Origin: a virus
Taxonomy: Duplodnaviria > Caudoviricetes
IMG/VR virus record: IMGVR_UViG_3300035670_000241
Location: 1 to 58,846 of that record
Length of the DNA stretch: 58,846 bases
Strand: one strand, 5' to 3'
Part shown: positions 3,439 through 44,213 of the stretch, piece after piece
Layout of the letters: each line of letters begins with the position of its first letter
Numbering within the stretch: position 1 is the stretch's first letter
The notes under the pieces: model-generated
Told to the model about the DNA's origin: nothing
The model's input: the letters and a program-made list of their open reading frames with translations, nothing else
The model's database searches: none
Made by a program: the position numbers and the translations under genes

Positions 3439-3439
3439 T

Positions 3440-4195
3440 ATGCCTCATGCAGTGACCACTCAGGGCCAAGGTACCGACGCCTTTATTTCGATACCTTCGT
3501 TCTCAATCAACGCTTTTGCGAACACGGACGTTAGTGGGTTCGAAATTGACATTAAACCATTGGCTGGTAACGCTAGCGGTTTTGTAAATTTACTTGGCAC
3601 GACTACGACTAACGTCACTGCGCTGCGTATAAATGTCTCAACACAAACGCTGCAATGGCGATACAGCAGCACTGTTTATCTGGAAAGTGCTGCCGGAACA
3701 GCTCCACTCAATGAACGCCATAGATACGGTGCTGAGTGGGAAGAGTCTACACAATCGTTGTACTTAACAAAAAACGGTGTTCGTATTGCCGGGCCTTATG
3801 TTGCTCCCGCCGCAAACTCACTAATCACAAACATAACGTGGAATCAGATAGGAAAGGTTGGATCTTCAGCTCCCGGCACTGCGGCATTTGAGCTGTACGG
3901 TATTCGAACCTACGGCAACAACTGCACGTACCAATCTCAATGGGATGACACTGGTGCGCCGGGAGCAGGGACATCATGGGTGAACGATTCTGCTGATAGA
4001 AATTTAACGTTAACCAGCTTCACTGGAGCGGCGGACAGCTGGTGGGTCTTTTATCCTGGCTTATCGCCTGGTACGCAAATCAAACGATTTGACGGTGCTG
4101 CGTTTGTTTCGAAACCTATTAAGCGTTGGGATGGCTCGGCTTTCATAGATGTGACGCTAAAGCGCTGGAACGGTAGTGCGTTTGTTGATGTTTGA
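3440..4195 (+). CDS. Tail protein with LamG/concanavalin-like beta-sandwich and 3 C-terminal KR(W/F)xG repeats
   Basis: First ~205 aa highly similar to 57129-58490; C-terminus IKRFDG/IKRWDG/LKRWNG. Confidence 0.6.
   Translation: MPHAVTTQGQGTDAFISIPSFSINAFANTDVSGFEIDIKPLAGNASGFVNLLGTTTTNVTALRINVSTQTLQWRYSSTVYLESAAGTAPLNERHRYGAEWEESTQSLYLTKNGVRIAGPYVAPAANSLITNITWNQIGKVGSSAPGTAAFELYGIRTYGNNCTYQSQWDDTGAPGAGTSWVNDSADRNLTLTSFTGAADSWWVFYPGLSPGTQIKRFDGAAFVSKPIKRWDGSAFIDVTLKRWNGSAFVDV
3731..3894 (+). repeat. 164-bp perfect direct repeat, copy 1 (copy 2 at 57420-57583)
   Basis: Base-for-base identity from GCTGAGTGGGAAGAG to GCATTTGAGCT. Confidence 0.95.
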
Positions 4196-8522: not shown

Positions 8523-8533
8523 GCGGCTTTTTT
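8511..8533 (+). terminator. Intrinsic terminator ahead of the giant gene
   Basis: AGCCGC-AAATAA-GCGGCT followed by a T-run. Confidence 0.55.
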
Positions 8534-8558
8534 GTTTCTATATCCAAAGGATCCGCCA

Positions 8559-11500: not shown

Positions 11501-14500
11501 GGACCAAGTGATTGCTGCTATGTCCAAAAGTGGCGGCGAACTTCAGGCGATGGCTGATGCTATCCCTGCAATCGCTCAGGCCAATCCTGAAACTATCAAG
11601 CTTGCTGCAAAGTACCGGCTTGGCTCGGGTTCATTCAGCATGTTCCGTGGCAAGCAGTACAGCCCATCTAAAACCTTTTACTACCCACAAAATGGCGGTA
11701 CAGAAATTCTTGATCTGGCCAGTCCAGATAAACAGGGCGCTCTGGATAACCTGGTGAAACTGATCAAGGCTGAAGCTGCAGCAAATCCTGACACTGCAGG
11801 GCAAAAGCAAAGCAAGATCTCAATCTATAGCGACCGCTATACGAAGCAAATCTACCTTGGATGGGCAGGTGGCAGCGGCGTGCTGCGGATCCAAGATTTC
11901 GCTACGGTCAACGAAGCGCGTGAGTATCTAAAATCAAACCGCGCTGATGTCGAAGCCAAACTGAAGCAACTTAAGCAAGTGCCTGAAATGCGCCGGCCAG
12001 AGAATCGTAAGCGGGTTGGACCTCCGCACTATGCAGGCAGCATAACTCCTGCAATTTTTGCAGATACCTTTGGTTTTAGAGGCGTTGAGTTTGGTAATTG
12101 GGTAGAGCAGGGGAAGCGGCAGCGAGATCTTAACGAAGCCTATGATGCGCTCATGGATCTTGCCGATGTACTTGGCGTCCCGCCAAAAGCACTGGCTTTA
12201 AATGGCGAGCTTGGCATGGCATTCGGTGCTCGCGGAAAAGGCGCTGCAACAACTATTAAAGCTGCTGCTCACTACGAGCCGTCTTATGTGGCAATCAATT
12301 TAACCAAAGAGTCAGGGGCCGGTTCGCTGGCACATGAATGGTGGCACGCGGTTGATAACTACTTTGCGCGACTGTCTGGTAATCCAAACAGCTTTGTGAC
12401 CGAAGGCGGCAACATCCGTGGTGGTGACTTGCGGCAAGAAGTACGCGATGCTTTCACAGCACTCATTTTGGCTATTCGAAAAACCAAGATGTTCCAGCGT
12501 GCATCAACGCTTGATTCGCGGCGTAGTAAGCCTTACTGGTCGTCAGAAATCGAAGCATCAGCCAGATCCTTTGAAACATTCATCATTGCAGAACTGGAAG
12601 CTAAAGGGTTTAGCAATGACTACCTGGCAAACGTAGTTGATCCGGAAGTGTGGGGCGCAGTCGAATCAGCAGAGCAGACTTACCCGTACCCAACCAAGGC
12701 TGAGCAGGAGATCATCAATCCAGCTTTCAGGGCATTCTTTGATACGCTGCAGACCAAAGAGACCGACAAAGGTGTGATGCTGTTCAGCAAACAAAACACC
12801 ATCAAAGCTAAGCCGGCGCGCGGCGTGAACGCCAAACTGGCTAAACAGATGGTGTCCAACATCATGCAGCGCCTGAACGGTGCGGCCGGCATTAAAGTTG
12901 TCGTGCTGGAGACTCAGGCCGAAGCCGAAAAACTCTGGCAGATGTCACTGTCTGGCGACCTGGTACGTGGTGCCTACAACCGTGCAACCAATACCGCCTA
13001 TGTGATTGCTGAAAACGTGAAGTCACTGGATGAATTGCGGGAAGTGGTGGCGCACGAAGTCATTGGCCATGGTGGCCTGCAGAATGTGATCAGCAAAGCC
13101 GATTACACCGCATTCATTGACCGCCTGAAACAGACTCGGAACAACCGAGCCTTTGCAAAGCAGTGGGTCCAGATTGATAACGACTATGACGGATTTAGCG
13201 AAAACGACAAAGCCGAGGAACTGTTCGCCTACTTTGTTCAGAATAAGCCAGTCACCGGCCCTGTGAAGTTCTGGTGGAATGCACTCAAACGGTTCCTGCA
13301 CAAAGCATTGGTATCAGTCGGCCTGGCGAAAGCCGGGGATCCGGATGTTGAGGCTATGCAGGATATGCTGGATTCGATTAGTGCCGGATTTATGTTTAGT
13401 CGGAATCAGTCCGATTCAACATCGGAACGCGCAGTTTTATTTAGTAGGGTGCCTGATTCAGCTCCAATCGTTGAACTAGGCAATTCAACAATCAACATTG
13501 GAACACTAAAAGAGATGGTTGTTGCTGCTCGCGAATATGCAAAAGCGCATTTAGCAGGAAAGACATTCATCAATAAAGATACTGGCCATGCCGTAAGTGT
13601 TTCTATGACGGGCGTACGACACACTTTATCAGGTGCGCAAGCAGATCTAATTTCATCAATCGAAGCAATTCCCGAACTCATTGAAAGGTCGATTTATATC
13701 GGCTCGGAACCTGACGCAAAAAGAGCAGAGTCTGGACTAATCTTCCACTACTACGCCGCGAAACTAAGCGTGGATTCTCGAGTTCATGATGTGATTACGG
13801 TTGTGCGGGAGGCTGAGGATGGTAAACGGTACTACGACCATTCGTTTGAAAGAAAAACGGACGCTCAATCTGCCTTGCCGTCAAATGCAGGGAATCAAGC
13901 GTCCGAATCCAACGATGCAAATGCACCGTCGGATGAAAGTATAAATCATGAACAGACCGGCTACAAGTTCAGCAAAGCACGCACCACTGAACAAGCCGAT
14001 GCGCTGGACAAACTGGGCCTTGGTGAAGAAGATGCAGAAACAATAGCCGAGCAAGCCAAGCGCCGGGCCAATGAAACTGTCGAAACGCTGAAAAGCAGCT
14101 CATTCTGGAAGCGACTGAATGAAGGTATCTTCGATGGCCTTGCCGGTATCAAACAGGCTGAGGAAGCCGCTGGCATCACGGATCCGAACAAACAGGGCTA
14201 TGTGTCTGCTCGCCTTGCGTCCGGCCTGTCCGATATTCTGCACGGCGTTTTCCACTACGGCGCACCAGTCTGGAAAGATGGCGTTGTGCAGCGTAAGGCT
14301 GATACCAAAGGCCTCCTGGAAGTTTTCGGCATGCTGGGCGATGACCTGAACGAATGGCTTGCATGGATGGGTGCTAATCGAGCAGAGCGCTTAATGGCTG
14401 AAGGCCGCGAGAACAATCTGAGTCAGGCAGATATCGATGAACTCAAAGCGATGGCTGCTGGCAAAGAAGATCTGTTTGAACAGGTCCGGCAGGAATACAA

Positions 14501-16571
14501 CAAGATCAACAGCGCTATCATCGACCTGGCTGAAGAGGCTGGACTTATCAGTGCAGAGCAGCGCGGCGGCTTTGATGAAGAGTGGTACGTGCCATTTTTC
14601 CGCAACATGGAAAACGAAGTGGATCCGGAAATGTCCGGAATTGCAGCCATGGTGCATGGCCCGCGCAGCCGCAAAGGTATTGCCGGCCAGTCAGCGCAAA
14701 TCAAAGAGCTGAAAGGTGGGCGCCAGTCGACCAAAGACTTGCTTGAAAACATCATCGCCAGACAGTCGACCATGATTGATGCAGCCATCAAGAACAAAGC
14801 GATGGCGGAAGTGGTGAGCAATCTGGAAGGCACGCCGTTTATGCAGGCAGTTGATAGCCCCGACATTGCGGCGCTAAGTCAGACTGAGCTGAACCTGCTG
14901 CAGAAAGTGAAGGTGATGCGCAACGGCAAAGCGGAGGCCTATACAGTCACGGATCCGGCGCTGCTGCGCGGCCTGCTGCAAATCCACACCATCGGCAACC
15001 AGTCTCTGTTTAACCGCATGGCCCGCAGTGCTAAGCGATTCCTGACCGCTGGTATCACATTATCGCCTGACTTCATCATCAAGAACTTTGTGCGCGATGC
15101 GGCACACGCCTGGATGATCAACAAAGACGGTTTCCGCTTTGGCGCTGACTCAGTTGCCGGACTTCGCAAAGCTTTTGCCGAGGATGAGGCGTACCGAGAT
15201 CTGATTTTCTCTGGTGCTGCATTCCAAGGTGGTTATGTGCATGGCGCAGACCCGGAGGCTGCAGCGCAGCAGGTTCGCCGGGCACTTCGCAGTAAAGGTC
15301 TGGGCGAGGCTGATATCCAGTCATACATGGACAGCCTGATCACAAAAGGTGGTCAGCTGCTGGAAGCGTACCGCACTGCGTCAGATAAGGTGGAGAACGC
15401 CAACCGGCTGAGCACGTATGAAGCTGCATTGGCCAGCGGTAAGTCGCGCCGGCAGGCTGCGTATGAGGCGAAAGACCTGATGGACTATTCGCTCAAAGGC
15501 AACTTTGCACTGATTGGCACCATGATTGATATGCTGCCGTTCTTCAATGCCCGGCTGCAGGGCATGAGCAAACTGGTCCGAGCCATGAAAGCCGGTGATG
15601 GTGACCGCGTACTGAAAGTGCTGAGCGCCAATCTGGCAATGAAGGGTTTGAAGGTTGCCGCATTCAGCCTGGCACTGGCTGCAATGAATGACGACGACGA
15701 GCGTTATCAGGAATTGCCGGACTGGGATAAAGACGCAAACTGGCACTTCTTTATTGGTGATGAACACTTCCGGATCCCGAAACCTTTCGAGCTAGGTATT
15801 CTGTTCGGCACCATGCCAGAACGGATGTTCCACTATGCGGCCGGCAGTCAGCCTGGCAGTGACTTAGGCAAAGCCGCGGCGCATGCTGTTTGGAATACGC
15901 TGGCACTAAACCCAATCCCGCAGCTGGCACTGCCAGTAGTTGAAGTGATGACGAACAAGTCATTCTTCAAAGGCAGTCAGATTGAAGGTATGGGCGATGC
16001 ACAGCGTAAGCCAGAGGACCGGTATAACGCCTACACCAGCGAAACGGCCAAACAGATTGGCGCTGCCTTTGGTGTTAGCCCGAAAATGGTCGAGCACTTG
16101 ATCCTCGGTTACACCGGCACCCTGGGTGGTTATATCCTTGGCATGTCCGACATTGCCGCGCGGCAGATGCTGGGCATTGAAGCTGCTGATACACCAATCA
16201 GCCGTTATCCGGTGATTAAAGCGTTCTATCAGGGCGATGCACCGAAAACCGCTACCAAGTTCCAGGATGAATTTTACAAGGCACTGGAGGAAGCCACCGA
16301 AGCGCACGGCAGTTATAAGCGTGCAGTGGAGGAAGGTAATGTGGTGCGGCAGCAAGATCTGAAGGAATCGGAGTCATTGGCACTTGGCGCCCGGGTTGCG
16401 CTGAACCGGATCCAACGTCGATTGAGTGAACTGAATAAGCAGGCAGAGCTGGTGAACAATAACCAAAGCCTGAGCGGTACGCAAAAGCGGCAGAAATTGG
16501 ACGACATTACTAAGCGCAAAAACGAGCTGTATCAAAACGCCTATCTGCGGTACAAGCTGGGTGAGTGGTGA
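8559..16571 (+). CDS. Giant polyvalent ejection protein (~2670 aa): ParB-like, LPD5/LPD1-like, zincin-like, LPD3-like and LPD38-like domains
   Basis: Motifs IPRAEMPQI..DGHHQW; DFGEKLGGARKD; FRGVEFGNW..AHEWWHAVD; HEVIGHGGL; FINKDTG..YYDH; RIPKPFELG. ATG at 8559 has an AAGGA RBS. Confidence 0.8.
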   Translation: MVRLYNYTPSSQLYGSIKPAETVKSSEPGLLSNMGRAAGSGALSGVGGIFDFVGADGIAKQFYGWSDDARQSMSQEAQADMAKPFFSENDQGDIQLGEGLTDLDTWLLTMANVAGQFAPTAIPGAGLAGTATKALKLGETGAKIATAVGMGATGGASATGQGMEQARQEWLQMPDELKLQSDLFKNTIREMKQAKPELDGEALWTEAENNVAERLAAEVQTDPKVLLANFAGSAIADPIIGRALTGARLAKSGALRSALKGFAIEGGTEAAQAGVQEYGINQALSQVDGRDPMDGVAVAALNEGVAGGTLGAAAGGVGGLLNRKQEEPVRDPEADAIRDKNPDLASAFDGMAQSAAQREADLQSIIGGMPAISQPVLEGELLDPEQAPGPNYNPNQIGMQPRIGGPTIPRIEQKDIIFAADGRTEAERNPAMEGEWLSPEQRANAAAGFIENAPIDLESEQVKQAKAEMERMRNQPRQITDKNIIFTGDGRPQQAAQEFTDNLQRQANQAASVPRLPQKDIIFAGDQSGVRVKGNGQVYQSAREAMTSKQARAMKRSGTPVEAVPFGDGWGWRVKESQPEQMQQPDIQPEQTVQPVEPAPIQLMKSGRPFSTQAMMLKSASYKEAAATGAELEPVKVEGGYGFRVKVAPAADLSGGAINDEWTAFADDSGTLKIPRAEMPQIKAEHRGAMTQFLKARGVSHEQDTVPAAGLKPTQAEFSPSKVAKAMEFDGGDRSILVSSDGYVLDGHHQWLAKRERGEEVDIIRFDAPIAELVKQAHEFPSSTVADGANIESNIESGTNNPDDTIKNQEGSGAQQGGLFTAGNAGASESGTQSGQERQGSSAERSNGPDPEQPEKPAVTTEPATQTPADAGVSVSEPLERIDDFGEKLGGARKDVWAGFSEAVSGEVDTRELPLSKSFPEPDYVKMAADGVSMETLAIIAAMRSEIPAKPRVSYKVRRWAEKVDVLRNFARDLISGELTPDQVIAAMSKSGGELQAMADAIPAIAQANPETIKLAAKYRLGSGSFSMFRGKQYSPSKTFYYPQNGGTEILDLASPDKQGALDNLVKLIKAEAAANPDTAGQKQSKISIYSDRYTKQIYLGWAGGSGVLRIQDFATVNEAREYLKSNRADVEAKLKQLKQVPEMRRPENRKRVGPPHYAGSITPAIFADTFGFRGVEFGNWVEQGKRQRDLNEAYDALMDLADVLGVPPKALALNGELGMAFGARGKGAATTIKAAAHYEPSYVAINLTKESGAGSLAHEWWHAVDNYFARLSGNPNSFVTEGGNIRGGDLRQEVRDAFTALILAIRKTKMFQRASTLDSRRSKPYWSSEIEASARSFETFIIAELEAKGFSNDYLANVVDPEVWGAVESAEQTYPYPTKAEQEIINPAFRAFFDTLQTKETDKGVMLFSKQNTIKAKPARGVNAKLAKQMVSNIMQRLNGAAGIKVVVLETQAEAEKLWQMSLSGDLVRGAYNRATNTAYVIAENVKSLDELREVVAHEVIGHGGLQNVISKADYTAFIDRLKQTRNNRAFAKQWVQIDNDYDGFSENDKAEELFAYFVQNKPVTGPVKFWWNALKRFLHKALVSVGLAKAGDPDVEAMQDMLDSISAGFMFSRNQSDSTSERAVLFSRVPDSAPIVELGNSTINIGTLKEMVVAAREYAKAHLAGKTFINKDTGHAVSVSMTGVRHTLSGAQADLISSIEAIPELIERSIYIGSEPDAKRAESGLIFHYYAAKLSVDSRVHDVITVVREAEDGKRYYDHSFERKTDAQSALPSNAGNQASESNDANAPSDESINHEQTGYKFSKARTTEQADALDKLGLGEEDAETIAEQAKRRANETVETLKSSSFWKRLNEGIFDGLAGIKQAEEAAGITDPNKQGYVSARLASGLSDILHGVFHYGAPVWKDGVVQRKADTKGLLEVFGMLGDDLNEWLAWMGANRAERLMAEGRENNLSQADIDELKAMAAGKEDLFEQVRQEYNKINSAIIDLAEEAGLISAEQRGGFDEEWYVPFFRNMENEVDPEMSGIAAMVHGPRSRKGIAGQSAQIKELKGGRQSTKDLLENIIARQSTMIDAAIKNKAMAEVVSNLEGTPFMQAVDSPDIAALSQTELNLLQKVKVMRNGKAEAYTVTDPALLRGLLQIHTIGNQSLFNRMARSAKRFLTAGITLSPDFIIKNFVRDAAHAWMINKDGFRFGADSVAGLRKAFAEDEAYRDLIFSGAAFQGGYVHGADPEAAAQQVRRALRSKGLGEADIQSYMDSLITKGGQLLEAYRTASDKVENANRLSTYEAALASGKSRRQAAYEAKDLMDYSLKGNFALIGTMIDMLPFFNARLQGMSKLVRAMKAGDGDRVLKVLSANLAMKGLKVAAFSLALAAMNDDDERYQELPDWDKDANWHFFIGDEHFRIPKPFELGILFGTMPERMFHYAAGSQPGSDLGKAAAHAVWNTLALNPIPQLALPVVEVMTNKSFFKGSQIEGMGDAQRKPEDRYNAYTSETAKQIGAAFGVSPKMVEHLILGYTGTLGGYILGMSDIAARQMLGIEAADTPISRYPVIKAFYQGDAPKTATKFQDEFYKALEEATEAHGSYKRAVEEGNVVRQQDLKESESLALGARVALNRIQRRLSELNKQAELVNNNQSLSGTQKRQKLDDITKRKNELYQNAYLRYKLGEW

Positions 16572-35990: not shown

Positions 35991-36106
35991 CAACCATCTG
36001 GTGGATTGCGGGCACTCTGGGCGGTTTCGTGCTGCTCTTGGCTCTGATGCTGGTCGTGATGGTTCGCATTGTGAGCAGGATGGCTGATGACGAGGTGCAG
36101 GAATGA
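35987..36106 (+). CDS. Small single-TM protein (39 aa, not in ORF track)
   Basis: MTTIWWIAGTLGGFVLLLALMLVVMVRIV...; ATGA overlaps at both ends. Confidence 0.55.
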   Translation: MTTIWWIAGTLGGFVLLLALMLVVMVRIVSRMADDEVQE

Positions 36107-36513
36107 TTTCACTAACCCTACCACTGCCACCAAGCATGAACAGCTACTGGCGCAGCGCGACAACCAAACCTAAACAGTTCGGACGCGGAATGCGCCTGGC
36201 GCAAAAGGCGATGTCACCAATCACGGTCTACATCAGCGAGAAGGGCCAGCAGTTCCGTACTGAGGTTATTGCTGCGGTGTTGCAAGCTCGGGCAAACAAA
36301 AAGCTCACTGGCCGGCTGCAGGTGGACTTGGTTATTCATCCGGCTGACCGGCGAGTGCAAGACATCGATAATCGCATCAAAGCAACGCTGGACGCACTGA
36401 CGCACGCCGGCGTCTACGCCGATGACTCGCAGATTGACCGGCTGATAGTTTGCCGCGGCGAAATCATCAAAGGTGGCCAGTGCCAGGTATTAATCACAGA
36501 GCTGCAGGGGTAA
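36103..36513 (+). CDS. rusA: RusA Holliday junction resolvase
   Basis: LPLPPSMN.YW; DIDNRIKATLDAL; DDSQI. Confidence 0.9.
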   Translation: MISLTLPLPPSMNSYWRSATTKPKQFGRGMRLAQKAMSPITVYISEKGQQFRTEVIAAVLQARANKKLTGRLQVDLVIHPADRRVQDIDNRIKATLDALTHAGVYADDSQIDRLIVCRGEIIKGGQCQVLITELQG

Positions 36514-36516
36514 CGC

Positions 36517-37092
36517 ATGGTAGCAACAGTTGAACGCCTATACACACGCCAGGTGCCAAAGAGCATTACCGGCAGCGAACTGATGTTTAAGAAATCAGCA
36601 AACCCGATGACTGGCGAAGATGTGCTGGGTTTGCTCGGGCAGGTTCAGCACCGGGAGCCAATCGGCGCTTTGGTTCTCGATGCGCAGATAGCTCAGAATA
36701 AAACGGCTCGGGCCAGATTGGTTGGTGCATTGCAGGCAACGCTGGTTCATTCCGGCAAGGGCGATGATTTGGCCTATACGATGGCTGAGGCTGCTGTTAG
36801 TGAAGTGGTGGACACTCACATCTGCGGCAAGTGTCACGGCACTGGTCAGGTGTTCAGCCGGAAGTTTGCGAAGATGTTTGAGTGCAGCCAGTGTGCCGGC
36901 GTCGGGCGGATCATCCCAAGCGAAGCGGTGTTGCTGCGGTCTATCAATCAGCACCTGGCCCAGCCATTGACCAAGGCGGAGTGGCAGAAGCGCCATTATG
37001 ACCATTACATGGATGCGGTAGATACGCTGCACCGGCATGCGGGGAATGCTGGTCGCTGCGCTCGTGCTTTGCTGGATGGGATGGGGGAGTGA
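36517..37092 (+). CDS. Q-like late antiterminator (zinc finger)
   Basis: CGKCHGTG/CSQCAGVG; position after rusA and before the late promoter. Confidence 0.65.
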   Translation: MVATVERLYTRQVPKSITGSELMFKKSANPMTGEDVLGLLGQVQHREPIGALVLDAQIAQNKTARARLVGALQATLVHSGKGDDLAYTMAEAAVSEVVDTHICGKCHGTGQVFSRKFAKMFECSQCAGVGRIIPSEAVLLRSINQHLAQPLTKAEWQKRHYDHYMDAVDTLHRHAGNAGRCARALLDGMGE

Positions 37093-38394: not shown

Positions 38395-39453
38395 ATGGGT
38401 GATATTTGGTTGTTGCTTGTAGGTGGCGCGGTAGCCATAGTGCTTGGCTTTGTTGCTCGCTGGGCCTTAAGGCTGGCACACTTTAAATACATAAAGTTTA
38501 ATCGGAGCCGAACGTTTAAAAAGCAGGTCCGCAGATACAGATATTGGGCTCCGGCAATTATTTTAGGGCTTCTGTCATTCCCCGCAATAACCTACCTTTT
38601 GAAGTTCTACAGTCACCCAATATCTTCAACCGCGGCAGAGTGGGGCCAGATGGGCGACTTCTTCGGAGGCATGCTTAACCCGATACTGGCCTTCGCCTCG
38701 TTCATCGCTCTGCTTTATACGATTCGGATACAGTCAAGAGAGCTTGAGCTTACAAGGCAAGAGTTCGAGAAGTCAGTTGAAGCGCAGCGTGAAATGGCCA
38801 CAGAAGCTAGGGGGCAGGTTCAGCTGATGGGTATGCAAAATGTGCTAAATACTTTTAATGCGTATTATGGAGTATTAGAGCGGACTATCGACAAGGATGG
38901 CACGAAAATTGGAGCTTTATCTATCCAGCATTATTTTTCATATAATCAATATGTATCCCCAGACGGCAATTATATTACTGATAATGTATTCATAAAGGAA
39001 ACGCTTCGAGGAAATGTTCTGACAGAATTGATGGTTATAAAGCAGTCAGTTTCTAGCTCATGCGTAAACACAGATTCTGTTAATGCACTATTTGAAACAT
39101 TGTTTTTTCTACATGCTCAGTTGAAGTTTAATGATGAGAGTGGCCTGTTTGATGCATTGGATAGGCATAACTCAGTTATACTAGGATGTGGGCGTTTGTC
39201 AGTGATTCAAATGAATCAACATATTATTTTTAATGTGTGTTTATACTACATTCTAATAAACCCACTCCACGAGCAACGCAAAAAAATAGTCGTTGACTTC
39301 GGTATTCTTGATGTGGTTTTCAGTAGGTTATCCAGCAACAAAGGTTTGAGTGCTGCACTTTATTTCATGCTTGAGTATGGACTTGAACCTAACGATAAAA
39401 AATTGCTATCTGGATATTCTAATCTTGTAGAAAACATCAAGTTTAAGCCTTAG
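38395..39453 (+). CDS. Membrane protein, putative abortive-infection-like cargo
   Basis: WGQMGDFFGG.LNPI..F..LLYT..IQ..EL..TR.E TM/coiled-coil module; very AT-rich C-terminal half. Confidence 0.6.
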   Translation: MGDIWLLLVGGAVAIVLGFVARWALRLAHFKYIKFNRSRTFKKQVRRYRYWAPAIILGLLSFPAITYLLKFYSHPISSTAAEWGQMGDFFGGMLNPILAFASFIALLYTIRIQSRELELTRQEFEKSVEAQREMATEARGQVQLMGMQNVLNTFNAYYGVLERTIDKDGTKIGALSIQHYFSYNQYVSPDGNYITDNVFIKETLRGNVLTELMVIKQSVSSSCVNTDSVNALFETLFFLHAQLKFNDESGLFDALDRHNSVILGCGRLSVIQMNQHIIFNVCLYYILINPLHEQRKKIVVDFGILDVVFSRLSSNKGLSAALYFMLEYGLEPNDKKLLSGYSNLVENIKFKP

Positions 39454-39459
39454 ATCCGC

Positions 39460-39495
39460 TTGACACTTCCAAAAACAAGCTTATTATTTCCCCAT
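39460..39495 (+). promoter_or_regulatory. Late promoter (pR'-like)
   Basis: TTGACA-16-TATTAT followed by two terminators, upstream of lysis and head genes. Confidence 0.65.
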
Positions 39496-39519
39496 CATCG
39501 GAGTTTTCTGCTCGATGAG

Positions 39520-39620
39520 AAAACAACCCCGGCAATCGCTGGGGTTTTTGCTTTTTAACACCCTGTTTTCTACACCCAGAACTTCTCGCCCCGGTCTGTT
39601 CACTCAGCCGGGGGTTTTTC
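39520..39620. terminator. Tandem intrinsic terminators (tR'-like)
   Basis: AACCCCGGC-AATC-GCTGGGGTTTTT and CCCCGG...CCGGGGGTTTTT. Confidence 0.7.
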
Positions 39621-39977
39621 ATTCTGGGCCGGTGGTAATTCGCACCAGGCGATTGGCCACTCGGAATCGAGAACAAGGAACACAGAATTAAGCTGGCTGT
39701 GATAAGCGCCCAGCATGAGCGTTTTGCCGCAGTACGTGGTAAAGCCGGAACCCAGAAAATCTTCGCCAGGGCAATAAGCGCTGATGCCTTCGATTTTCAC
39801 CCGGCGATATGAATCGTCGACCATCGCAATATCAATGAATCCGCCGAAGTGTGTTGGCCTGAAGTCATCGCGCAGCCTGACGTTCACTGTCTGGCCGCAC
39901 GCGAGGCTGTGCCCGGCAACAATGTGCGGAGCGAGTGTGACCACGCCGTAATTGAATCTGCGTCTGATGGTTGGCAT
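39600..39977 (-). CDS. Putative SOS-regulated 125-aa protein (weakly DUF5348-like)
   Basis: MPTIRRRF..HSLACGQTVNV..RVKIEG; LexA box and extended -10 directly upstream. Confidence 0.5.
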   Translation of the reverse strand: MPTIRRRFNYGVVTLAPHIVAGHSLACGQTVNVRLRDDFRPTHFGGFIDIAMVDDSYRRVKIEGISAYCPGEDFLGSGFTTYCGKTLMLGAYHSQLNSVFLVLDSEWPIAWCELPPAQNEKPPAE

Positions 39978-40028: not shown

Positions 40029-40373
40029 ATGGGTGAGCACAAAGACCATGCGATGGAAGCTGACTTCGTAGCCAGCGGTTCTGTCTTTCCAAAAGTTACC
40101 GCGGCTCGCATCGATGAGCTGATGCAGCAAGTGACATTCAGCACTCACGTTGTGCCTGGTACGACAACCACGATTGCCACAGCAATGCTGCAGGTCGGTG
40201 CTGTTAAGTTCACGTTGGCCAATGAGTTCACCGCATGCGTTGATCCGCGCAACTTTAATGCTGAGCTGGGCGCGAAGTACGCCATCGAAAAAGCGGCAGA
40301 GTCGGCACGCAATAAGCTGTGGGAGCTGGAAGGTTATTCGCTGGCGCAGCAGTTTGCTGCAAAGGCGGCGTGA
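40029..40373 (+). CDS. N4 Gp49/Sf6 gp66-family protein (Acb4-like candidate sponge)
   Basis: ACVDPRNFNAELG..A..A.NKLWELEGY.L family signature. Confidence 0.75.
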   Translation: MGEHKDHAMEADFVASGSVFPKVTAARIDELMQQVTFSTHVVPGTTTTIATAMLQVGAVKFTLANEFTACVDPRNFNAELGAKYAIEKAAESARNKLWELEGYSLAQQFAAKAA

Positions 40374-40375
40374 TC

Positions 40376-40855
40376 ATGGATTTATACATTGGCACTAAAT
40401 TAATCAAGGCGGTTCCAATGCCGCTGGGCCAGTACAACAACCTGCAAGGGTGGAAGCTGCCAGAAGGTCAGGAGCCGCACACGCCAGGCTACCTTGTTGA
40501 GTATCAGGACGGCGGCAAACCTAACCACCCAGACTTTGCCGGCTACATCAGCTGGTCACCGAAAGATGTTTTCGAACGGGCATATCAGCCGACATCCGGT
40601 ATGGACTTTGGGATGGCGCTGAATGCCATCAAAGCTGGTAAGTACGTGTCTCGCTCTGGCTGGAATGGTCCTGGTCAATACATCTTTGGCATCGGCATGC
40701 CGGGCAGTGGTGATTATTGGACTTATACCAATGGCAAGAATGATAACTGCAAATTGGTGCCGTTCTTGGCAATCAGAACTGTTCAAAATTCAACTGTCCC
40801 TTGGCTCGCCAGCCAAACCGACATGCTGGCCACTGACTGGTACATCGTAGAGTAA
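40376..40855 (+). CDS. Fusion protein: N-terminal SWSPKDVFE domain + DUF2829/Tad2-like domain
   Basis: C-terminal half MDFGMAL..K.G..V.R.GWNG...W.ASQTDMLA.DW. Confidence 0.8.
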   Translation: MDLYIGTKLIKAVPMPLGQYNNLQGWKLPEGQEPHTPGYLVEYQDGGKPNHPDFAGYISWSPKDVFERAYQPTSGMDFGMALNAIKAGKYVSRSGWNGPGQYIFGIGMPGSGDYWTYTNGKNDNCKLVPFLAIRTVQNSTVPWLASQTDMLATDWYIVE

Positions 40856-40857
40856 CA

Positions 40858-41331
40858 ATGTCCACCCATAACAAACTCGCATCCCGCGGCATCATCGGTG
40901 CCGTGGCGCTTTCTGCTGCCCTATTGGTTATGCCGTGGGAAGGGAAAGAGAACGAAGTTTATCTGGATCCGGCAAACATCTTAACCAGCTGCTACGGCCA
41001 TACCGGCCCCGAATTAAAGCCGGGCATGAAGTTCACTGACGAACAGTGTCTGGATCAACTGGCAGCTGACCTGAGCAAACACAACCGGCAAATGCTGGCT
41101 GTGGTGCAAGTGCCGCTCTCCGAAGGTGAGCACGCGGCTTACCTGTCCTTTGTCTACAACGCCGGCGCTGGCCGGTGGCAGAAATCCACGATGCTGCAGC
41201 TGCTCAATCAGGGTAAGCGCAAAGAGGCGTGCCACCAGTTAATGCGCTGGGTTTACATCGGCAATCAACAATCAAACGGCTTAGTGAATCGGCGCAGGGC
41301 CGAAGCCAAGCTTTGCATGAGGGATTTGTAA
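40858..41331 (+). CDS. SAR-type endolysin (GH24 lysozyme)
   Basis: Hydrophobic N-terminal SAR; E-x8-D-x5-T triad (WEG..YLD..TSCYGHTG); GLVNRR. Confidence 0.9.
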   Translation: MSTHNKLASRGIIGAVALSAALLVMPWEGKENEVYLDPANILTSCYGHTGPELKPGMKFTDEQCLDQLAADLSKHNRQMLAVVQVPLSEGEHAAYLSFVYNAGAGRWQKSTMLQLLNQGKRKEACHQLMRWVYIGNQQSNGLVNRRRAEAKLCMRDL

Positions 41332-41819
41332 TGCGTACCTATCTGAAACATGGCCTGCTGGCCTTGGTCTGTTTATCCGTTCTGGCCCTTGGTGGCTTCT
41401 CCGCCTATCAAACCGTTGAGCTGTCACACGCTCAAGCCGCGATTGAATCCAAAGACATCACCATCAAAACCCAATCCGATTCTCTGACCGAGCTGACTGC
41501 TGCTGTCACTTCAATTTCGAATCAGGTTGGCGACCTGGTAACGCAGGCCGAACTGGTTGCCGCTCTCAACGCAGAGCACGAACAAAACAAACAGGTGATT
41601 GCCGACACAGGCAACGACTGGCTGACCAACTCCAACAAACTGCAGGTATCTGAACATGAACCCACGCGCAATTGGGCTGCTATGCCTTTGCCTGATGATG
41701 CTCGCCGGATGCTCATCGACGCCAGCTACAGTGGTCAAAACAGTCACGGTAAAGCAGCCAGTATACGTCCTGCCGCCTTCAAACATGATGGCTACTGGTT
41801 GCCCGCTACGGCCATTTAA
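41331..41819 (+). CDS. i-spanin (Rz-like)
   Basis: N-terminal TM, coiled-coil, WAAMPLPD motif. Confidence 0.75.
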   Translation: MRTYLKHGLLALVCLSVLALGGFSAYQTVELSHAQAAIESKDITIKTQSDSLTELTAAVTSISNQVGDLVTQAELVAALNAEHEQNKQVIADTGNDWLTNSNKLQVSEHEPTRNWAAMPLPDDARRMLIDASYSGQNSHGKAASIRPAAFKHDGYWLPATAI

Positions 41820-41964
41820 CGGCACCACAAATCTGGACCATCACCGGTACACCCTTCAGCTCATCACGGATATCAAACTATGCAATCTGGAATCCGAGCG
41901 GTATCGCAAGTGGCGGAGCACTCAGGTATGCATGAAGGAACCAGGCTTATGTCTGAAAAAGTAA
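41656..41964 (+). CDS. o-spanin lipoprotein (Rz1-like)
   Basis: Lipobox LAGC; overlaps the i-spanin in another frame. Confidence 0.75.
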   Translation: MNPRAIGLLCLCLMMLAGCSSTPATVVKTVTVKQPVYVLPPSNMMATGCPLRPFNGTTNLDHHRYTLQLITDIKLCNLESERYRKWRSTQVCMKEPGLCLKK

Positions 41965-42164
41965 CAGCCAGTGGCTCTTACATTACAGCTGGGGCAACTA
42001 CCGGCGTCGGCCTGCTCAGTTTGTCTGAGTGGGCTGTCGTCATCGGCATTCTGGCCACAATCGCAACATTCGTTTTGAACTACGTGGTGCAGGTCCGGAA
42101 GTTAAAAATGGATGAGCGGGAGCACGAAGCCCGCATGAAGCAGTACGAGGCTGAGACTGACTGA
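41949..42164 (+). CDS. Holin (HP1-like)
   Basis: SY..G...LSLSEWAVVIGIL..IATFVLN. Confidence 0.7.
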   Translation: MSEKVTASGSYITAGATTGVGLLSLSEWAVVIGILATIATFVLNYVVQVRKLKMDEREHEARMKQYEAETD

Positions 42165-42721
42165 TGACAGGTGCAGTAACAGCCTTTGGAGCGGAAGGAA
42201 ACCTCACCGCTAAAGAGGCTTTGTTTGTTCATCACTACGTGACCAACGGCTATAACGCCGCAGCAGCAGCCAGAGCTGCAGGCTTTGCGGAATCCTCCGC
42301 CAATACGCAAGGCGCGAAGCTGGTCGCTAAGCCCAGAGTGAAAGCGGCCATCGACGCACTGATGGCGCCAACACTCAAAAAACTGGATGTCACCAAAGAG
42401 CGGATCATCGAAGAGCTGGCTCGCCTTGCATTCTTTGACATCCGCAAGTGCTTCAACCCGGACGGCACTCTCAAAGATATCACCGAGCTTGACGACGACA
42501 CTGCTGCAGCGCTTGCCGGCATGGATGTGGTCGAGCTTGGCGAAGCGGGCGACAAAGAAGCTCTGCTCAAGAAATTCAAAGTCAGCGACAAAAAAGGTGC
42601 GCTGGAACTACTCGGCAAACACCTGAAGATGTGGACCGACAAAGTGGAGGTCACCGACGACAGGCCAAGAGTCGTGATCCGCGACTTAACCGGCAAGAAG
42701 AAAACAGCAGGTAGCGAATAG
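42164..42721 (+). CDS. terS: Terminase small subunit
   Basis: LTAKEALFV..YNAAAAARAAG; EELARLAF.D; KKGALELLGKHL. Confidence 0.9.
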   Translation: MTGAVTAFGAEGNLTAKEALFVHHYVTNGYNAAAAARAAGFAESSANTQGAKLVAKPRVKAAIDALMAPTLKKLDVTKERIIEELARLAFFDIRKCFNPDGTLKDITELDDDTAAALAGMDVVELGEAGDKEALLKKFKVSDKKGALELLGKHLKMWTDKVEVTDDRPRVVIRDLTGKKKTAGSE

Positions 42722-42722
42722 T

Positions 42723-44213
42723 GTGCAAACAACCTATGAGTTCGTTACCGCTCCGCAAGGCGATGTTCTAGCGGAGTACATGAGTGCACGCGGTCGCGTG
42801 ACATTCATTATGGGGCCAATCGGCTCTGGCAAAACATACGGCAGCTGCCAGCGCATGTTTGCTCAAATCTGCGAGCAGGAACCCAACAAGTCAGGCGTGC
42901 GCAAGTCCCGCTGGATAGCAGTGCGAAACACCTACCCAGACCTTAAAGGGACCACCATCAAGGACTGGCGAGAACTCTACGACAATGAGGATGTGAAGCT
43001 TGGCAAGTTCAATATGGACTTTCCGCCAACGCATAGCCTCGACTTCGATTTAGAGGACGGTACCAGAGTCGTCGCTGAAGTCGTGTTTCTGGCACTCGAC
43101 CGGCCAGACTCAGTGCGAAAGCTGCGCGGCTTGCAGGTAACCGGCTTTTGGCTCAACGAAGTCAAAGAGCTCAGCAAGGCCGTTGTCGATATGTGTGATG
43201 GCCGGCATGGTCGTTACCCGGACAACTGCAGCTGGCACGGCATGATAGGGGACACCAACGCCCCAGATACCGACCACTGGTACTACGAGCAGGCAGAGGA
43301 TGTGAAGCCTGAAGGCTGGACCTTCTTGCGTCAGCCTGGTGGTGTGATTGAGAAGGTGATCGGCACTGGTGCGAACCGGAAGTCTCAGTGGTTGCCAAAC
43401 CCGAACGCAGAAAACCTGAACAACCTGCCAGAAGGCTATTACATCAGGCAGGTGCAGGGTAAGAAAGACGACTGGATCCGAGTCAACCTCGGAAACCTGT
43501 ACGGCAATGTCAGTACCGGCAAGCCGATTTACGGTGGTACATGGAACGACATCAGGCATGTATCTAAACACCCATTAGCAGCCATTCCACGGCATCAAGT
43601 TCTGATGTTGGGCTTTGACTTTGGGCGCACGCCAGCCTGCATCATCGGCCAGCCGCTACCGAGCGGAAAGCTCAGGGTTATCGAAGAGCTTATTGCCACC
43701 GGTATGGGCATCCGCAAGTTCATGGATGAAATGGTGATGCCGGCACTGAAAACAAAATACAGCCGGTTCCCGCTGTCGCGCATTCAGGCATTCGGTGATC
43801 CAGCCGGGATTGCAAAGAGCGGTAACGACGAGAACAGCCCGCTCGGCATTCTGGTCGATGAATACAAGCTCAACGCTTACCCGACAGCCAGCAACTTACC
43901 AGAGCGACGCTGGGAAGCGGTGAATTACTACCTGACCAACGACATCGACGGTCAGCCAGCTTTTGAACTCAGCCCTGATTGCAGGGTGCTACGCAAAGGC
44001 TTCAACGGCGGTTACGCATTCCGCCGGATCAATTCCAGCGGTGAGCGCTACACCGACACAGCAGATAAAAACAGTTACAGCCATCCGCATGACGGCCTGC
44101 AGTACCTCTGCCAAGGGGCGCAGGGCATGATTGATTACGCATGGCGAGACAATCACGACGCATCCAACCAGATGGGTCAAACAGTCGGCCACGACAAAAA
44201 AACAGGTTACTAA
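42723..44213 (+). CDS. terL: Terminase large subunit
   Basis: Walker A GPIGSGKT, WLNE, GFDFG, HPHDGLQY. Confidence 0.9.
   Translation: MQTTYEFVTAPQGDVLAEYMSARGRVTFIMGPIGSGKTYGSCQRMFAQICEQEPNKSGVRKSRWIAVRNTYPDLKGTTIKDWRELYDNEDVKLGKFNMDFPPTHSLDFDLEDGTRVVAEVVFLALDRPDSVRKLRGLQVTGFWLNEVKELSKAVVDMCDGRHGRYPDNCSWHGMIGDTNAPDTDHWYYEQAEDVKPEGWTFLRQPGGVIEKVIGTGANRKSQWLPNPNAENLNNLPEGYYIRQVQGKKDDWIRVNLGNLYGNVSTGKPIYGGTWNDIRHVSKHPLAAIPRHQVLMLGFDFGRTPACIIGQPLPSGKLRVIEELIATGMGIRKFMDEMVMPALKTKYSRFPLSRIQAFGDPAGIAKSGNDENSPLGILVDEYKLNAYPTASNLPERRWEAVNYYLTNDIDGQPAFELSPDCRVLRKGFNGGYAFRRINSSGERYTDTADKNSYSHPHDGLQYLCQGAQGMIDYAWRDNHDASNQMGQTVGHDKKTGY

What the first reader, a model, noticed from the sequence alone, without database searches (positions are those of the whole stretch)
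40029..40855. Anti-defence sponge cluster heading the late operon, with an extra domain fused to Tad2
Seen: a Gp49/gp66-family gene followed by a two-domain protein whose C-terminal half has the DUF2829 signature. Established: DUF2829 proteins include Tad2, which sequesters Thoeris gcADPR signals. From recollection (to be verified), the cGAMP sponge Acb4 belongs to the Gp49/66 family. Inference: the N-terminal YIGTK..GYLVEY.DG..YISWSPKDVFERAY domain is a third immune-signal-binding or degrading module, and late expression matches systems triggered by virion proteins.
Basis: partly seen in the sequence, partly recalled or inferred. Interest (0 to 1): 0.75.

Follow-up and report, generated by a model that had tools for sequence, protein, structure and literature searches.

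The report
Phage sponge cassette with dimerising add-on domain
Two adjacent phage genes encode relatives of proteins that soak up bacterial alarm molecules, and one carries a small, very conserved extra domain of unknown function that turns up almost only on such sponge proteins.

Summary
Window 40029-40373 encodes a PF13876 (Acb4) protein. Window 40376-40855 encodes a 159-aa protein whose residues 76-158 are a Tad2 domain and whose residues 1-72 match no Pfam or NCBIfam family and no solved fold.

The arrangement is not unusual. Phage N4 has the same gene pair (gp48, gp49), as does the nearest cultured relative found, Pseudoalteromonas phage vB_Pun_Y3. The two-domain form covers at least 80% of the query in 94 of 307 matching phage records.

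The new point concerns the N-terminal domain. It is found in 1491 clusters. Of the 149 best hits, 97 carry Tad2, Sequestin or Acb4, and 3 more carry an Acb2/Tad1 hairpin. It is also homologous to the N-terminal domain of RyR Tad (Pectobacterium phage CB1 gp68). A 2026 preprint reports that domain as a fold of unknown function, a strand-swapped dimer in the crystal, with no anti-Thoeris I activity on its own. My two-copy prediction gives the same beta1 swap (score 0.67, best control 0.00).

Best reading: two sponges at the head of the late/lysis operon, plus a dimerising module that accompanies sponges. A third ligand-binding role is possible but unshown. The locus itself is ordinary. The domain is an open, testable question.

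The parts
36517..37092 (+). Q-like antiterminator gene (context)
   Evidence: phrog_127 'anti-termination protein Q-like', E 2e-13. It follows a RusA-like gene at 36103-36513 (phrog_34, E 1.1e-35).
39460..39487 (+). Sigma-70-type promoter-like site, TTGACA-16-TATTAT. Read as a lambdoid PR'-like late promoter (inference).
   Evidence: 11 of 12 consensus matches; sequence read. The scan as a whole found 3 sites against a mean of 4.6 in shuffles, so only the quality of this site and its pairing with the terminator carry weight.
39525..39556 (+). Intrinsic-terminator-like hairpin plus T run, about 40 bases after the promoter-like site. Read as tR'-like (inference).
   Evidence: 9-pair stem with 6 GC pairs, 4-base loop, tail TTTGCTTTTT. 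It could also simply terminate the gene that ends at 39453.
39600..39977 (-). 125-aa ORF of unknown function on the opposite strand, between the terminator and the cassette
   Evidence: No Pfam or NCBIfam match. Weak phrog_15882 match, E 3.3e-4.
40029..40373 (+). Acb4-family gene (PF13876), 114 aa
   Evidence: Pfam E 6.1e-15. phrog_322 E 3e-27. 35% identity, E 1e-17, to N4 gp48. N4 Acb4 binds c-di-AMP at 111 nM according to passages read.
40376..40591 (+). N-terminal domain of the second gene (residues 1-72): a sponge-associated domain predicted to form a strand-swapped dimer; function unknown
   Evidence: No Pfam match at E<=10 and no NCBIfam match. Model pLDDT 96.4. No clear solved fold. 1491 clusters in the representative library. 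Fusion partners are sponges. hhalign probability 97.5% to CB1 gp68 residues 2-71. Two-copy prediction score 0.67 against best control 0.00.
40601..40855 (+). Tad2 domain (residues 76-159) plus stop codon
   Evidence: PF11195 E 9.1e-24. phmmer hits to solved ModTad2, HgmTad2/AcrIIA7, SptTad2 and SPO1 Tad2. Foldseek gave 24 PDB matches at E<=0.001; all 15 of them listed are Tad2/AcrIIA7 chains (9 further chains of the same entries are left out of the list), TM by target 0.59-0.87.
40858..41331 (+). Endolysin (context)
   Evidence: PF00959 Phage_lysozyme, E 6.1e-38.
41331..41819 (+). Rz-like i-spanin (context)
   Evidence: phrog_89 Rz-like spanin, E 8.3e-9.
41656..41964 (+). Rz1/LysC-like o-spanin, overlapping the i-spanin gene (context)
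   Evidence: PF23793 LysC, E 5.5e-13.
41880..42164 (+). Holin (context)
   Evidence: PF16080 Phage_holin_2_3, E 2e-13.
42164..44213 (+). Small and large terminase subunits (context)
   Evidence: PF03592, E 1.5e-28, and PF03237, E 1.1e-4.

Best explanation
The locus is a two-gene counter-defence cassette of a temperate, lambdoid-style phage. The record is an IMG/VR virus record that CheckV rates complete.

Gene 1 is an Acb4-family protein. It is expected to form a tetramer that sequesters cyclic dinucleotide signals of CBASS-type systems.

Gene 2 is a Tad2-family sponge. It is expected to form a tetramer that sequesters TIR-made ADP-ribose-derived signals of Thoeris (gcADPR, His-ADPR). It is preceded by a 72-residue domain.

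That domain is an autonomous, obligate homodimerisation module. Its first beta strand inserts into the sheet of the partner copy. It travels with sponge domains of at least five unrelated families. Its most likely job is to hold sponge protomers together, so that the pockets formed between protomers are pre-assembled and more stable. It probably does not act on Thoeris I signals itself.

The cassette sits after a promoter-plus-terminator pair of the Q-dependent late type and directly upstream of lysis and packaging genes, so it is probably transcribed with the late genes.

Shown here: family membership, the Tad2 fold, domain autonomy, the fusion partners and homology to the RyR Tad N-domain. 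Inferred: oligomeric states, ligands, the clamp role and the timing of expression.
For: Identities:
- Pfam matches clear their cut-offs for both genes.
- The Tad2 fold matches solved Tad2 structures.
- The GWNG and W..S.TD motifs are kept (W96, N97, W143, S146, T148, D149). These correspond by spacing to the SPO1 contact residues W25, N26, W73, S76, T78, D79 named in the passage read.
- Gene 1 is 35% identical to N4 gp48. Gene 2 is 45% identical over both domains to N4 gp49.

Domain autonomy:
- The domain folds alone with pLDDT 96.4.
- It occurs N-terminal, internal or C-terminal in other proteins.
- It occurs alone as a 69-aa ORF in Aeromonas phage JELG-KS1 and in ESM Atlas clusters of 78, 75 and 67 aa.

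Partners, among the 149 best of 1491 clusters (Pfam tallies):
- 48 N-domain-Tad2
- 31 N-domain-Sequestin
- 6 Acb4-N-domain-Sequestin
- 3 N-domain-Acb4
- 9 other combinations of these domains
- 52 with no partner recognised by my own HMMs. I scanned the 39 longer ones of these; 3 have an Acb2/Tad1 hairpin.

Dimer:
- Two-copy prediction score 0.67, best of 3 controls 0.00. The three runs agree in at least 96% of contacts, and the partner's pLDDT is at least 87.
- That mark was reached by 20 of 30 proteins solved as pairs and by 1 of 23 solved as single chains.
- The lowest-error contacts pair residues 2-6 of one copy with residues 7-12 of the other.
- The CB1 gp68 N-domain is homologous (hhalign probability 97.5%, E 6.1e-12). 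The preprint reports it as a domain-swapped dimer with beta1 inserted into the other protomer, says both domains contribute to dimerisation, and found that the N fragment alone lacks anti-Thoeris I activity.

Context. The same gene order is seen in phage vB_Pun_Y3.
Against: - The clamp role has not been tested on any member. In CB1 gp68 the C-terminal domain alone still inhibited Thoeris I, so the N-domain is not required for activity when the protein is over-expressed.
- The domain is more conserved than Tad2 itself. Mean pairwise identity is 0.658 against 0.506, and it is higher in 91% of 1953 pairs.
- Its invariant polar residues (K8, E42, D45, N50, S59, S61) lie in the predicted two-fold interface. 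That also fits a ligand pocket between protomers.
- Stand-alone forms are hard to explain with a pure helper role.
- CB1 gp68 lacks the near-invariant DGGKPNHP loop, so its negative result may not transfer to this protein.
- This copy departs from the >=90% consensus at R24Q, E32Q, K99P and M101Q. The last two lie next to the GWNG motif, and their effect is unknown.
- Late timing is inferred from consensus scans only. The scan found no more promoter-like sites than in shuffled sequence.
Confidence: 0.5

Rival explanations
1. The N-terminal domain is itself a further signal-binding sponge, or a small signal-degrading enzyme. Its pocket would lie at the strand-swapped dimer interface and target a signal its partners do not cover. 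The gene pair would then neutralise three signal classes.
For: - It is fused almost only to sponge domains, which is the logic that led Tal et al. to Sequestin (passages read; my tallies).
- It is short and predicted to be a homo-oligomer, as all known sponges are (passage).
- Conservation is very high, with invariant aromatic and polar residues. 19 of the 28 positions that are >=90% conserved fall in the predicted interface, which takes 40 of 74 residues.
- Stand-alone genes and clusters exist.
Against: - The CB1 gp68 N fragment showed no anti-Thoeris I activity, and gcADPR binding mapped to the C-terminal domain.
- Conserved charges are mixed and partly acidic (E42, D45), not the positive pocket described for sponges (passages).
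- An intertwined dimer buries much of its surface, which alone could explain the conservation.
Confidence: 0.27
2. The N-terminal domain binds a host protein, for example a defence sensor or effector, and brings the attached sponge to the site of signal production.
For: - Weak fold resemblance to small beta-barrel protein- or peptide-binding modules. Best Z is 4.0 to DUF1653 (3be3_B; rmsd 1.9 A, 50 residues aligned); Tudor, chromo and CarD-like domains score about Z 3 (for example 6m6a_M Z 3.4, rmsd 2.1 A, 45 aligned).
- High conservation across phages of many hosts would fit a conserved target.
Against: - A Z of 4 is below the level the tool calls meaningful.
- The domain occurs in phages of very different hosts: Escherichia, Vibrio, Pseudomonas, Clostridium, Bacteroides. 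No conserved defence protein is an obvious common target.
- Nothing in the searches points to a partner.
Confidence: 0.1
3. The domain shields sponges from bacterial guard systems that detect sponge activity (Panoptes, PanDA).
For: The common denominator of its partners is that they are sponges, not that they bind one particular ligand.
Against: Phages N4 and Bas69 (MZ501049.1) carry the N-domain-Tad2 gene. PanDA nevertheless restricts them through their Acb4 (passages read).
Confidence: 0.04

Closest known systems
Escherichia phage N4 gp48-gp49 (RefSeq NC_008720 numbering)
   Same: Same two genes in the same order, with abutting coding sequences. gp48 is Acb4-like (35% identity). gp49 is N-domain plus Tad2 (45% identity over 156 residues).
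   Different: In N4 the pair lies next to the virion RNA polymerase gene. A preprint calls that region an anti-signalling hotspot of N4-like phages. Here the pair lies between a late-promoter-like site and the lysis genes of a lambdoid-style genome.
Pseudoalteromonas phage vB_Pun_Y3, genes at 2854-3180 and 3177-3677
   Same: Closest large terminase found (69.6% identity). Same order: Holliday junction resolvase, other genes, opposite-strand genes, Phage_gp49_66 gene, a 166-aa gene that carries the N-domain, lysozyme, spanin, holin, terminase.
   Different: It is a cultured phage of 48.9 kb. I did not check its second gene for the Tad2 domain residue by residue.
RyR Tad (Pectobacterium phage CB1 gp68), bioRxiv 10.64898/2026.06.04.730250
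   Same: Its N-terminal domain is homologous to this one (hhalign probability 97.5%). The strand swap reported for its crystal matches the swap predicted here.
   Different: Its partner is a ryanodine-receptor-like helical gcADPR sponge, not Tad2. It lacks the near-invariant DGGKPNHP loop.
Solved single-domain Tad2 proteins (SPO1 Tad2 8SME/8SMF, ModTad2 9EIB, HgmTad2/AcrIIA7 8KBI, SptTad2 8WJD)
   Same: Same fold and motifs in residues 76-159. The best match is ModTad2 in complex with His-ADPR, at 41% identity.
   Different: The listed Tad2 chains are 73-104 residues long and match only the C-terminal half of the model. Neither the N-domain sequence nor its profile matched any solved chain. 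This copy has GWNGPGQ where the consensus is GWNGKGM.
Sequestin (PF21825) as the recurrent fusion partner of Tad2 and Acb4 (Tal et al., bioRxiv 10.1101/2025.07.12.664507)
   Same: It is also a short domain found fused to Tad2 and Acb4, and that is how it was recognised as a sponge.
   Different: It is a different family. The N-domain has no PF21825 match at E<=10. Sequestin is described as alpha-helical, whereas this domain is mixed beta/alpha. The two often occur in the same protein, with the N-domain directly before Sequestin.

Membership tests
Acb4 (Pfam PF13876 Phage_gp49_66), gene 40029-40373 | Match to the family profile above the curated cut-off | tested here: met
   55.9 bits against a cut-off of 27, E 6.1e-15, profile positions 1-81 of 82.
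Acb4 (Pfam PF13876 Phage_gp49_66), gene 40029-40373 | Similarity to a member with measured ligand binding | tested here: met
   35% identity, E 1e-17, to N4 gp48. N4 Acb4 binds c-di-AMP at 111 nM (passage read). That gp48 is the N4 Acb4 is my inference from its similarity to this Acb4-family protein; I did not scan gp48 itself against Pfam.
Acb4 (Pfam PF13876 Phage_gp49_66), gene 40029-40373 | Match to the solved SPO1 Acb4 structure and its contact residues | tested here: inconclusive
   Neither phmmer nor a 45-sequence profile found an Acb4 chain in the PDB copy.
Acb4 (Pfam PF13876 Phage_gp49_66), gene 40029-40373 | Homotetramer that sequesters cyclic dinucleotides | not testable with these tools
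   Needs SEC-MALS and binding assays.
Tad2 (Pfam PF11195, formerly DUF2829), residues 76-159 of gene 40376-40855 | Match to the family profile above the curated cut-off | tested here: met
   84.2 bits against a cut-off of 25, E 9.1e-24, profile positions 1-73 of 73.
Tad2 (Pfam PF11195, formerly DUF2829), residues 76-159 of gene 40376-40855 | Tad2 fold | tested here: met
   24 Foldseek PDB matches at E<=0.001; all 15 listed are Tad2/AcrIIA7 chains. Best is 9eib_B, E 6.8e-7. TM by target is up to 0.87.
Tad2 (Pfam PF11195, formerly DUF2829), residues 76-159 of gene 40376-40855 | Ligand-contact residues of SPO1 Tad2 (W25, N26, W73, S76, T78, D79; passage read) | tested here: met
   W96, N97, W143, S146, T148 and D149 are present. 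W96, N97, W143, S146 and D149 are invariant in 63 homologues. They align with the same motifs in ModTad2, HgmTad2 and SptTad2. The correspondence to SPO1 numbering is inferred from motif spacing; I did not see a printed alignment to the SPO1 chain.
Tad2 (Pfam PF11195, formerly DUF2829), residues 76-159 of gene 40376-40855 | Homotetramer that sequesters gcADPR or His-ADPR | not testable with these tools
Sequestin (PF21825), considered for residues 1-72 | Match to the family profile; alpha-helical fold | tested here: not met
   No Pfam match at E<=10 for residues 1-74. The model has three strands and two helices, whereas Sequestin is described as alpha-helical.
Lockin, considered for residues 1-72 | Curved beta-rich protomer forming a hexamer | not testable with these tools
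   I had no Lockin sequence or profile. As a descriptive mismatch only: Tal et al. found no Lockin in INPHARED genomes, while this domain is in 135 records of the INPHARED-derived collection.
N-terminal domain of RyR Tad (unnamed fold; CB1 gp68 residues 1-86) | Sequence homology | tested here: met
   hhalign probability 97.5%, E 6.1e-12, 70 columns, 30% identity. BLASTP E 2e-5.
N-terminal domain of RyR Tad (unnamed fold; CB1 gp68 residues 1-86) | Dimer with beta1 swapped into the partner's sheet | tested here: met
   This is a prediction only. Score 0.67 against best control 0.00; 20 of 30 solved pairs and 1 of 23 single chains reached the mark; at least 96% contact agreement between runs; partner pLDDT at least 87. 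Residues 2-6 pair with residues 7-12 of the other copy. No chain with this domain is in the PDB copy by sequence, so recall of a solved complex is unlikely.

The most novel reading that the evidence does not exclude
The 72-residue domain is a further, unrecognised family of immune-signal sponges, or a minimal signal-cleaving enzyme. Its pocket would be formed at the strand-swapped dimer interface by the invariant E42, Y43, D45, N50, Y57, S59 and S61. It would be present in well over a thousand protein clusters, including model phage N4. The roughly 31 unidentified domains fused to it would include more new sponge families.
Probability: 0.25. Interest if true: 0.75.

Novelty: new member of a known kind. 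Interest (0 to 1): 0.45.

Why it matters
Sponges against nucleotide immune signals are a fast-growing class, and several were found through their fusion partners. This domain has no Pfam entry, so Pfam-based fusion screens cannot see it. Among the best 149 clusters that hold it, it is found with Tad2, Sequestin, Acb4 and Acb2/Tad1, and its RyR Tad homologue adds a fifth sponge family. If it is a clamp, it explains how unrelated sponges stabilise pockets that form between protomers. If it binds a ligand, it is a widespread missing sponge family. Either way it marks neighbouring unknown domains as sponge candidates, and phage N4 offers a tractable test system.

Tried and rejected
- Known fold for the N-domain: Foldseek against PDB gave nothing at E<=0.001. 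VIA-align against 48,161 chains gave a best Z of 4.0 (DUF1653 3be3_B, rmsd 1.9 A, 50 residues aligned), then Tudor, chromo and CarD-like domains at about Z 3, for example 6m6a_M at Z 3.4, rmsd 2.1 A, 45 aligned. This is below the level the tool treats as meaningful, so I claim no fold.
- Sequence and profile searches of the PDB with the N-domain gave only a spurious leucine-rich-repeat hit and Tad2 chains matched by the alignment's C-terminal columns.
- Pfam and NCBIfam have no family for the N-domain.
- BFVD gave 8 matches at E<=0.001: six without a functional name, one named for its Tad2-like domain and one named NodB-like. The lead to RyR Tad came from rank 10, E 7.8e-3.
- Megablast of 2 kb around the locus against the phage collection found no match, so there is no close DNA relative.
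- I dropped the anti-guard (Panoptes/PanDA) idea because N4 and Bas69 carry the domain and are still restricted.
- TadIV-1 is helical and unrelated.
- I looked for mention of this domain in the papers listed by my searches. I read passages or sections of eight of them. Only the RyR Tad preprint mentions it. Supplementary tables were closed. The tested Tad2, Sequestin or Acb4 homologues listed there may include proteins that carry this domain.
- No tRNA genes were found in the window.
Full report
WHAT IS THERE

The stated interval holds two same-strand genes separated by 2 bases.

- Gene 1 (40029-40373, 114 aa) matches Pfam PF13876 Phage_gp49_66 at 55.9 bits against a cut-off of 27.
- Gene 2 (ATG at 40376 to 40855, 159 aa) matches PF11195 Tad2-like over residues 76-158 at 84.2 bits against a cut-off of 25.
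They match no Pfam family even at E<=10, no NCBIfam model and no solved chain by sequence.
- PHROGs places the whole second protein in phrog_872 (E 7.4e-56). The N-terminal part alone also matches the first 62 positions of phrog_9467, and gene 1 matches the later part of that same profile. This was the first sign that the N-domain also occurs fused to Acb4.

CHECKING THE RECALLED FACTS

- Chang et al. (bioRxiv 10.1101/2024.12.30.630793; passages and sections 7 and 8 read) state that SPO1 Acb4 belongs to PF13876. They describe it as a tetrameric sponge for 3'3'-cGAMP, and all eight homologues they tested bound cGAMP.
- Tal et al. (bioRxiv 10.1101/2025.07.12.664507; passages and section 7 read) equate Tad2 with PF11195. 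They report that Tad2 and Acb4 are often fused, and that the commonest Pfam family fused to either is PF21825, which they show to be a sponge and name Sequestin.

THE TAD2 HALF IS A REGULAR TAD2

- A model built from 63 homologues (pLDDT 91.1) gives 24 Foldseek matches in the PDB at E<=0.001. All 15 that are listed are Tad2 or AcrIIA7 chains. The best is ModTad2 bound to His-ADPR, at 41% identity.
- The GWNG and W..S.TD motifs are present. W96, N97, W143, S146 and D149 are invariant in the alignment.
- By spacing these answer to the SPO1 contact residues named by Yirmiya et al. (passage read).
- This copy has P and Q where more than 90% of homologues have K99 and M101. I cannot judge the effect of that.

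THE ARRANGEMENT IS COMMON

- tblastn of the whole protein finds 307 phage records. In 94 of them one place covers at least 80% of the query.
- The N-domain alone finds 135 records, all with at least 80% coverage.
- Among them is phage N4. Its gp48 is 35% identical to gene 1 and its gp49 is 45% identical to gene 2 across both domains, and the two genes abut. N4 Acb4 binds c-di-AMP at 111 nM (passage read).
- The phage with the closest large terminase, Pseudoalteromonas phage vB_Pun_Y3 (69.6% identity), has the same local order as this window: Phage_gp49_66 gene, a 166-aa gene with the N-domain, lysozyme, spanin, holin, terminase.
- In the P22-like phage Kapi1 the two-domain gene lies between the spanins and the terminase.

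THE N-TERMINAL DOMAIN

Folded alone with a 150-row alignment, it gives pLDDT 96.4 and pTM 0.83, with three strands and two helices.

No solved fold stands out:
- Foldseek against PDB gave nothing at E<=0.001.
- The wide VIA-align search gave a best Z of 4.0 to DUF1653 (rmsd 1.9 A, 50 residues aligned), and Tudor, chromo and CarD-like domains near Z 3.

A full HMMER scan of 1.84 billion representatives with residues 1-74 finds 1491 clusters at E<=0.001 and 726 at E<=1e-10. The domain lies at the start, in the middle or at the end of proteins of 88 to 658 aa.

Pfam on the query plus the best 149 hits found five families:
- Tad2-like: 52 members
- PF21825 Sequestin: 44
- Phage_gp49_66: 9
- Acb2/Tad1 hairpin: 3
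- WDGH: 1

My own iterated HMMs on the same 149 hits gave these architectures:
- N-domain-Tad2: 48
- N-domain-Sequestin: 31
- Acb4-N-domain-Sequestin: 6
- N-domain-Acb4: 3
- other orders of these domains: 9
- no recognised partner: 52

Of those 52, 10 are at most 113 aa. I left out the 13 shortest (88-128 aa) and scanned the 39 others. These gave 3 Acb2/Tad1 hairpins, 1 WDGH, 2 weak Sequestin matches, 1 weak Tad2 match and three near-threshold matches that I take as chance. About 31 therefore have unidentified partners.

The ESM Atlas search agrees and adds stand-alone clusters of 78 aa (114 members), 75 aa (58 members) and 67 aa (75 members). A 69-aa stand-alone ORF lies between the spanins and the large terminase of the T7-like Aeromonas phage JELG-KS1.

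Within the two-domain family the N-domain is better conserved than Tad2. Mean pairwise identity is 0.658 against 0.506, and 28 of 72 columns are at least 90% conserved against 20 of 84.

LINK TO A DESCRIBED PROTEIN

- The BFVD search listed a ryanodine-receptor-domain protein of Yersinia phage TG1 at rank 10.
- A 2026 preprint (bioRxiv 10.64898/2026.06.04.730250; passages and section 9 read) describes gp68 of Pectobacterium phage CB1, which it names RyR Tad.
- Its C-terminal RyR-like domain binds 1''-3' gcADPR with a KD of 43 nM.
- The fragment 1-86 had no apparent anti-Thoeris I activity.
- In the crystal the N-domain is domain-swapped, with beta1 inserted into the other protomer to complete a five-stranded sheet.
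- I fetched gp68. Residues 2-71 align to my N-domain profile with hhalign probability 97.5% and E 6.1e-12, but without the near-invariant DGGKPNHP loop.

PREDICTED DIMER

- Two copies of residues 1-74 score 0.67 against a best control of 0.00.
- That mark was reached by 20 of 30 proteins solved as pairs and by 1 of 23 solved as single chains.
- The three runs share at least 96% of contacts, and the partner's pLDDT is at least 87.
- The lowest-error contacts pair residues 2-6 of one copy with residues 7-12 of the other. This is the swap reported for RyR Tad.
- No chain with this domain is in the PDB copy by sequence, so recall of a solved complex is unlikely.
- The predicted interface takes 40 of 74 residues and includes 19 of the 28 most conserved positions, among them K8, E42, Y43, D45, N50, Y57, S59 and S61.
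- This supports dimerisation. It does not show it.

HOW IT MOST LIKELY WORKS

Gene 1 and the Tad2 half are sponges for cyclic dinucleotide signals and for ADP-ribose-derived signals. This is family-level inference. No ligand was tested.

For the N-domain I rank an obligate strand-swapped dimerisation module that accompanies sponges first (about 0.5). The reasons:
- It is the only role backed by a structure of a homologue.
- All known sponges form their pockets between protomers.
- An intertwined interface can explain the conservation.

A separate ligand-binding or catalytic role comes second (about 0.27). It is favoured by the stand-alone genes, by the invariant polar residues at the two-fold interface, and by conservation above that of the attached sponge. 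The CB1 negative result weakens it only partly, because that member lacks the conserved loop and was tested against one system only.

A host-protein-binding role is possible but has no specific support.

A role against sponge-sensing guard systems is unlikely, because N4 and Bas69 carry the domain and are still restricted by PanDA through Acb4.

CONTEXT AND TIMING

- The record is a virus record of 58,846 bases that CheckV rates complete.
- Upstream lie a RusA-like gene and a Q-like antiterminator gene (36517-37092), followed by three ORFs without function.
- Next comes TTGACA-16-TATTAT at 39460-39487, followed about 40 bases later by a strong hairpin plus T run at 39525-39556.
- That pairing resembles lambdoid Q-dependent late promoters. 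This reading rests on established knowledge of those phages and is inference. The scan found no excess of promoter-like sites over shuffles.
- A 125-aa ORF on the opposite strand lies between the terminator and the cassette.
- Downstream, without gaps, are endolysin, spanins, holin and terminase.
- So 'heading the late operon' is a fair description.
- The link to defence systems triggered by virion proteins is untested.

VERDICT

The locus is a regular member of a widespread Acb4 plus Tad2 cassette that is already present in phage N4. What remains open, and worth a bench test, is the function of the N-terminal domain. It has been noted once in print as a fold of unknown function. The searches listed under Tried and rejected found no paper that recognises it as a shared companion of several sponge families. 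Supplementary tables of the cited papers were closed and may list tested proteins that contain it.

Noticed in passing
window 39460-39556: A near-consensus promoter (11 of 12) is followed about 40 bases later by a strong intrinsic terminator. This resembles the PR'/tR' pair of lambdoid late operons, but it lies 2.4 kb downstream of the Q-like gene rather than right after it.
   Followed up: partly
window 39600-39977 (-): A 125-aa ORF on the opposite strand sits inside what would be the late-transcript leader. It has no Pfam or NCBIfam match and only a weak phrog_15882 match. vB_Pun_Y3 also has opposite-strand genes at this position.
   Followed up: partly
window 38395-39453 (+): A 352-aa protein with a hydrophobic N-terminus lies between the Q-like gene and the late-promoter-like site. 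It matches phrog_8999 (unknown function) and no Pfam family. It may be an accessory (moron) gene.
   Followed up: no
window 40858-42164: The lysis genes are in the order endolysin, i-spanin with overlapping o-spanin, then holin last, immediately before the small terminase subunit. vB_Pun_Y3 has the same order.
   Followed up: partly
proteins of alignment A3 (for example P0188, P0189, P0179, P0234, P0132, P0140): About 31 of 39 N-domain proteins with long flanks have partner domains with no credible Pfam match. Given the company this domain keeps, these are candidate new sponge families.
   Followed up: partly
P0128 (658 aa) and P0131 (373 aa): These long proteins carry N-domain plus Tad2 at the C-terminal end. 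The first 200-487 residues have no Pfam match. I cannot tell whether they are real fusions or miscalled ORFs.
   Followed up: no
L004 (phage N4, NC_008720 33632-34485): Pfam names PF13876 after 'N4 Gp49'. In the RefSeq record, however, the Acb4-like gene is gp48, and gp49 is the N-domain plus Tad2 protein.
   Followed up: yes
window 8532-16571 (+): A single 2679-aa ORF lies in the tail region of the genome. I did not examine it.
   Followed up: no
phage records (for example PQ850616.1, PQ310662.1, PP889499.1): Several records annotate the two-domain gene as 'anti-CRISPR protein'. This presumably comes from the AcrIIA7 link of DUF2829. Yirmiya et al. argue that these proteins are anti-Thoeris rather than anti-CRISPR (passage read).
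   Followed up: partly
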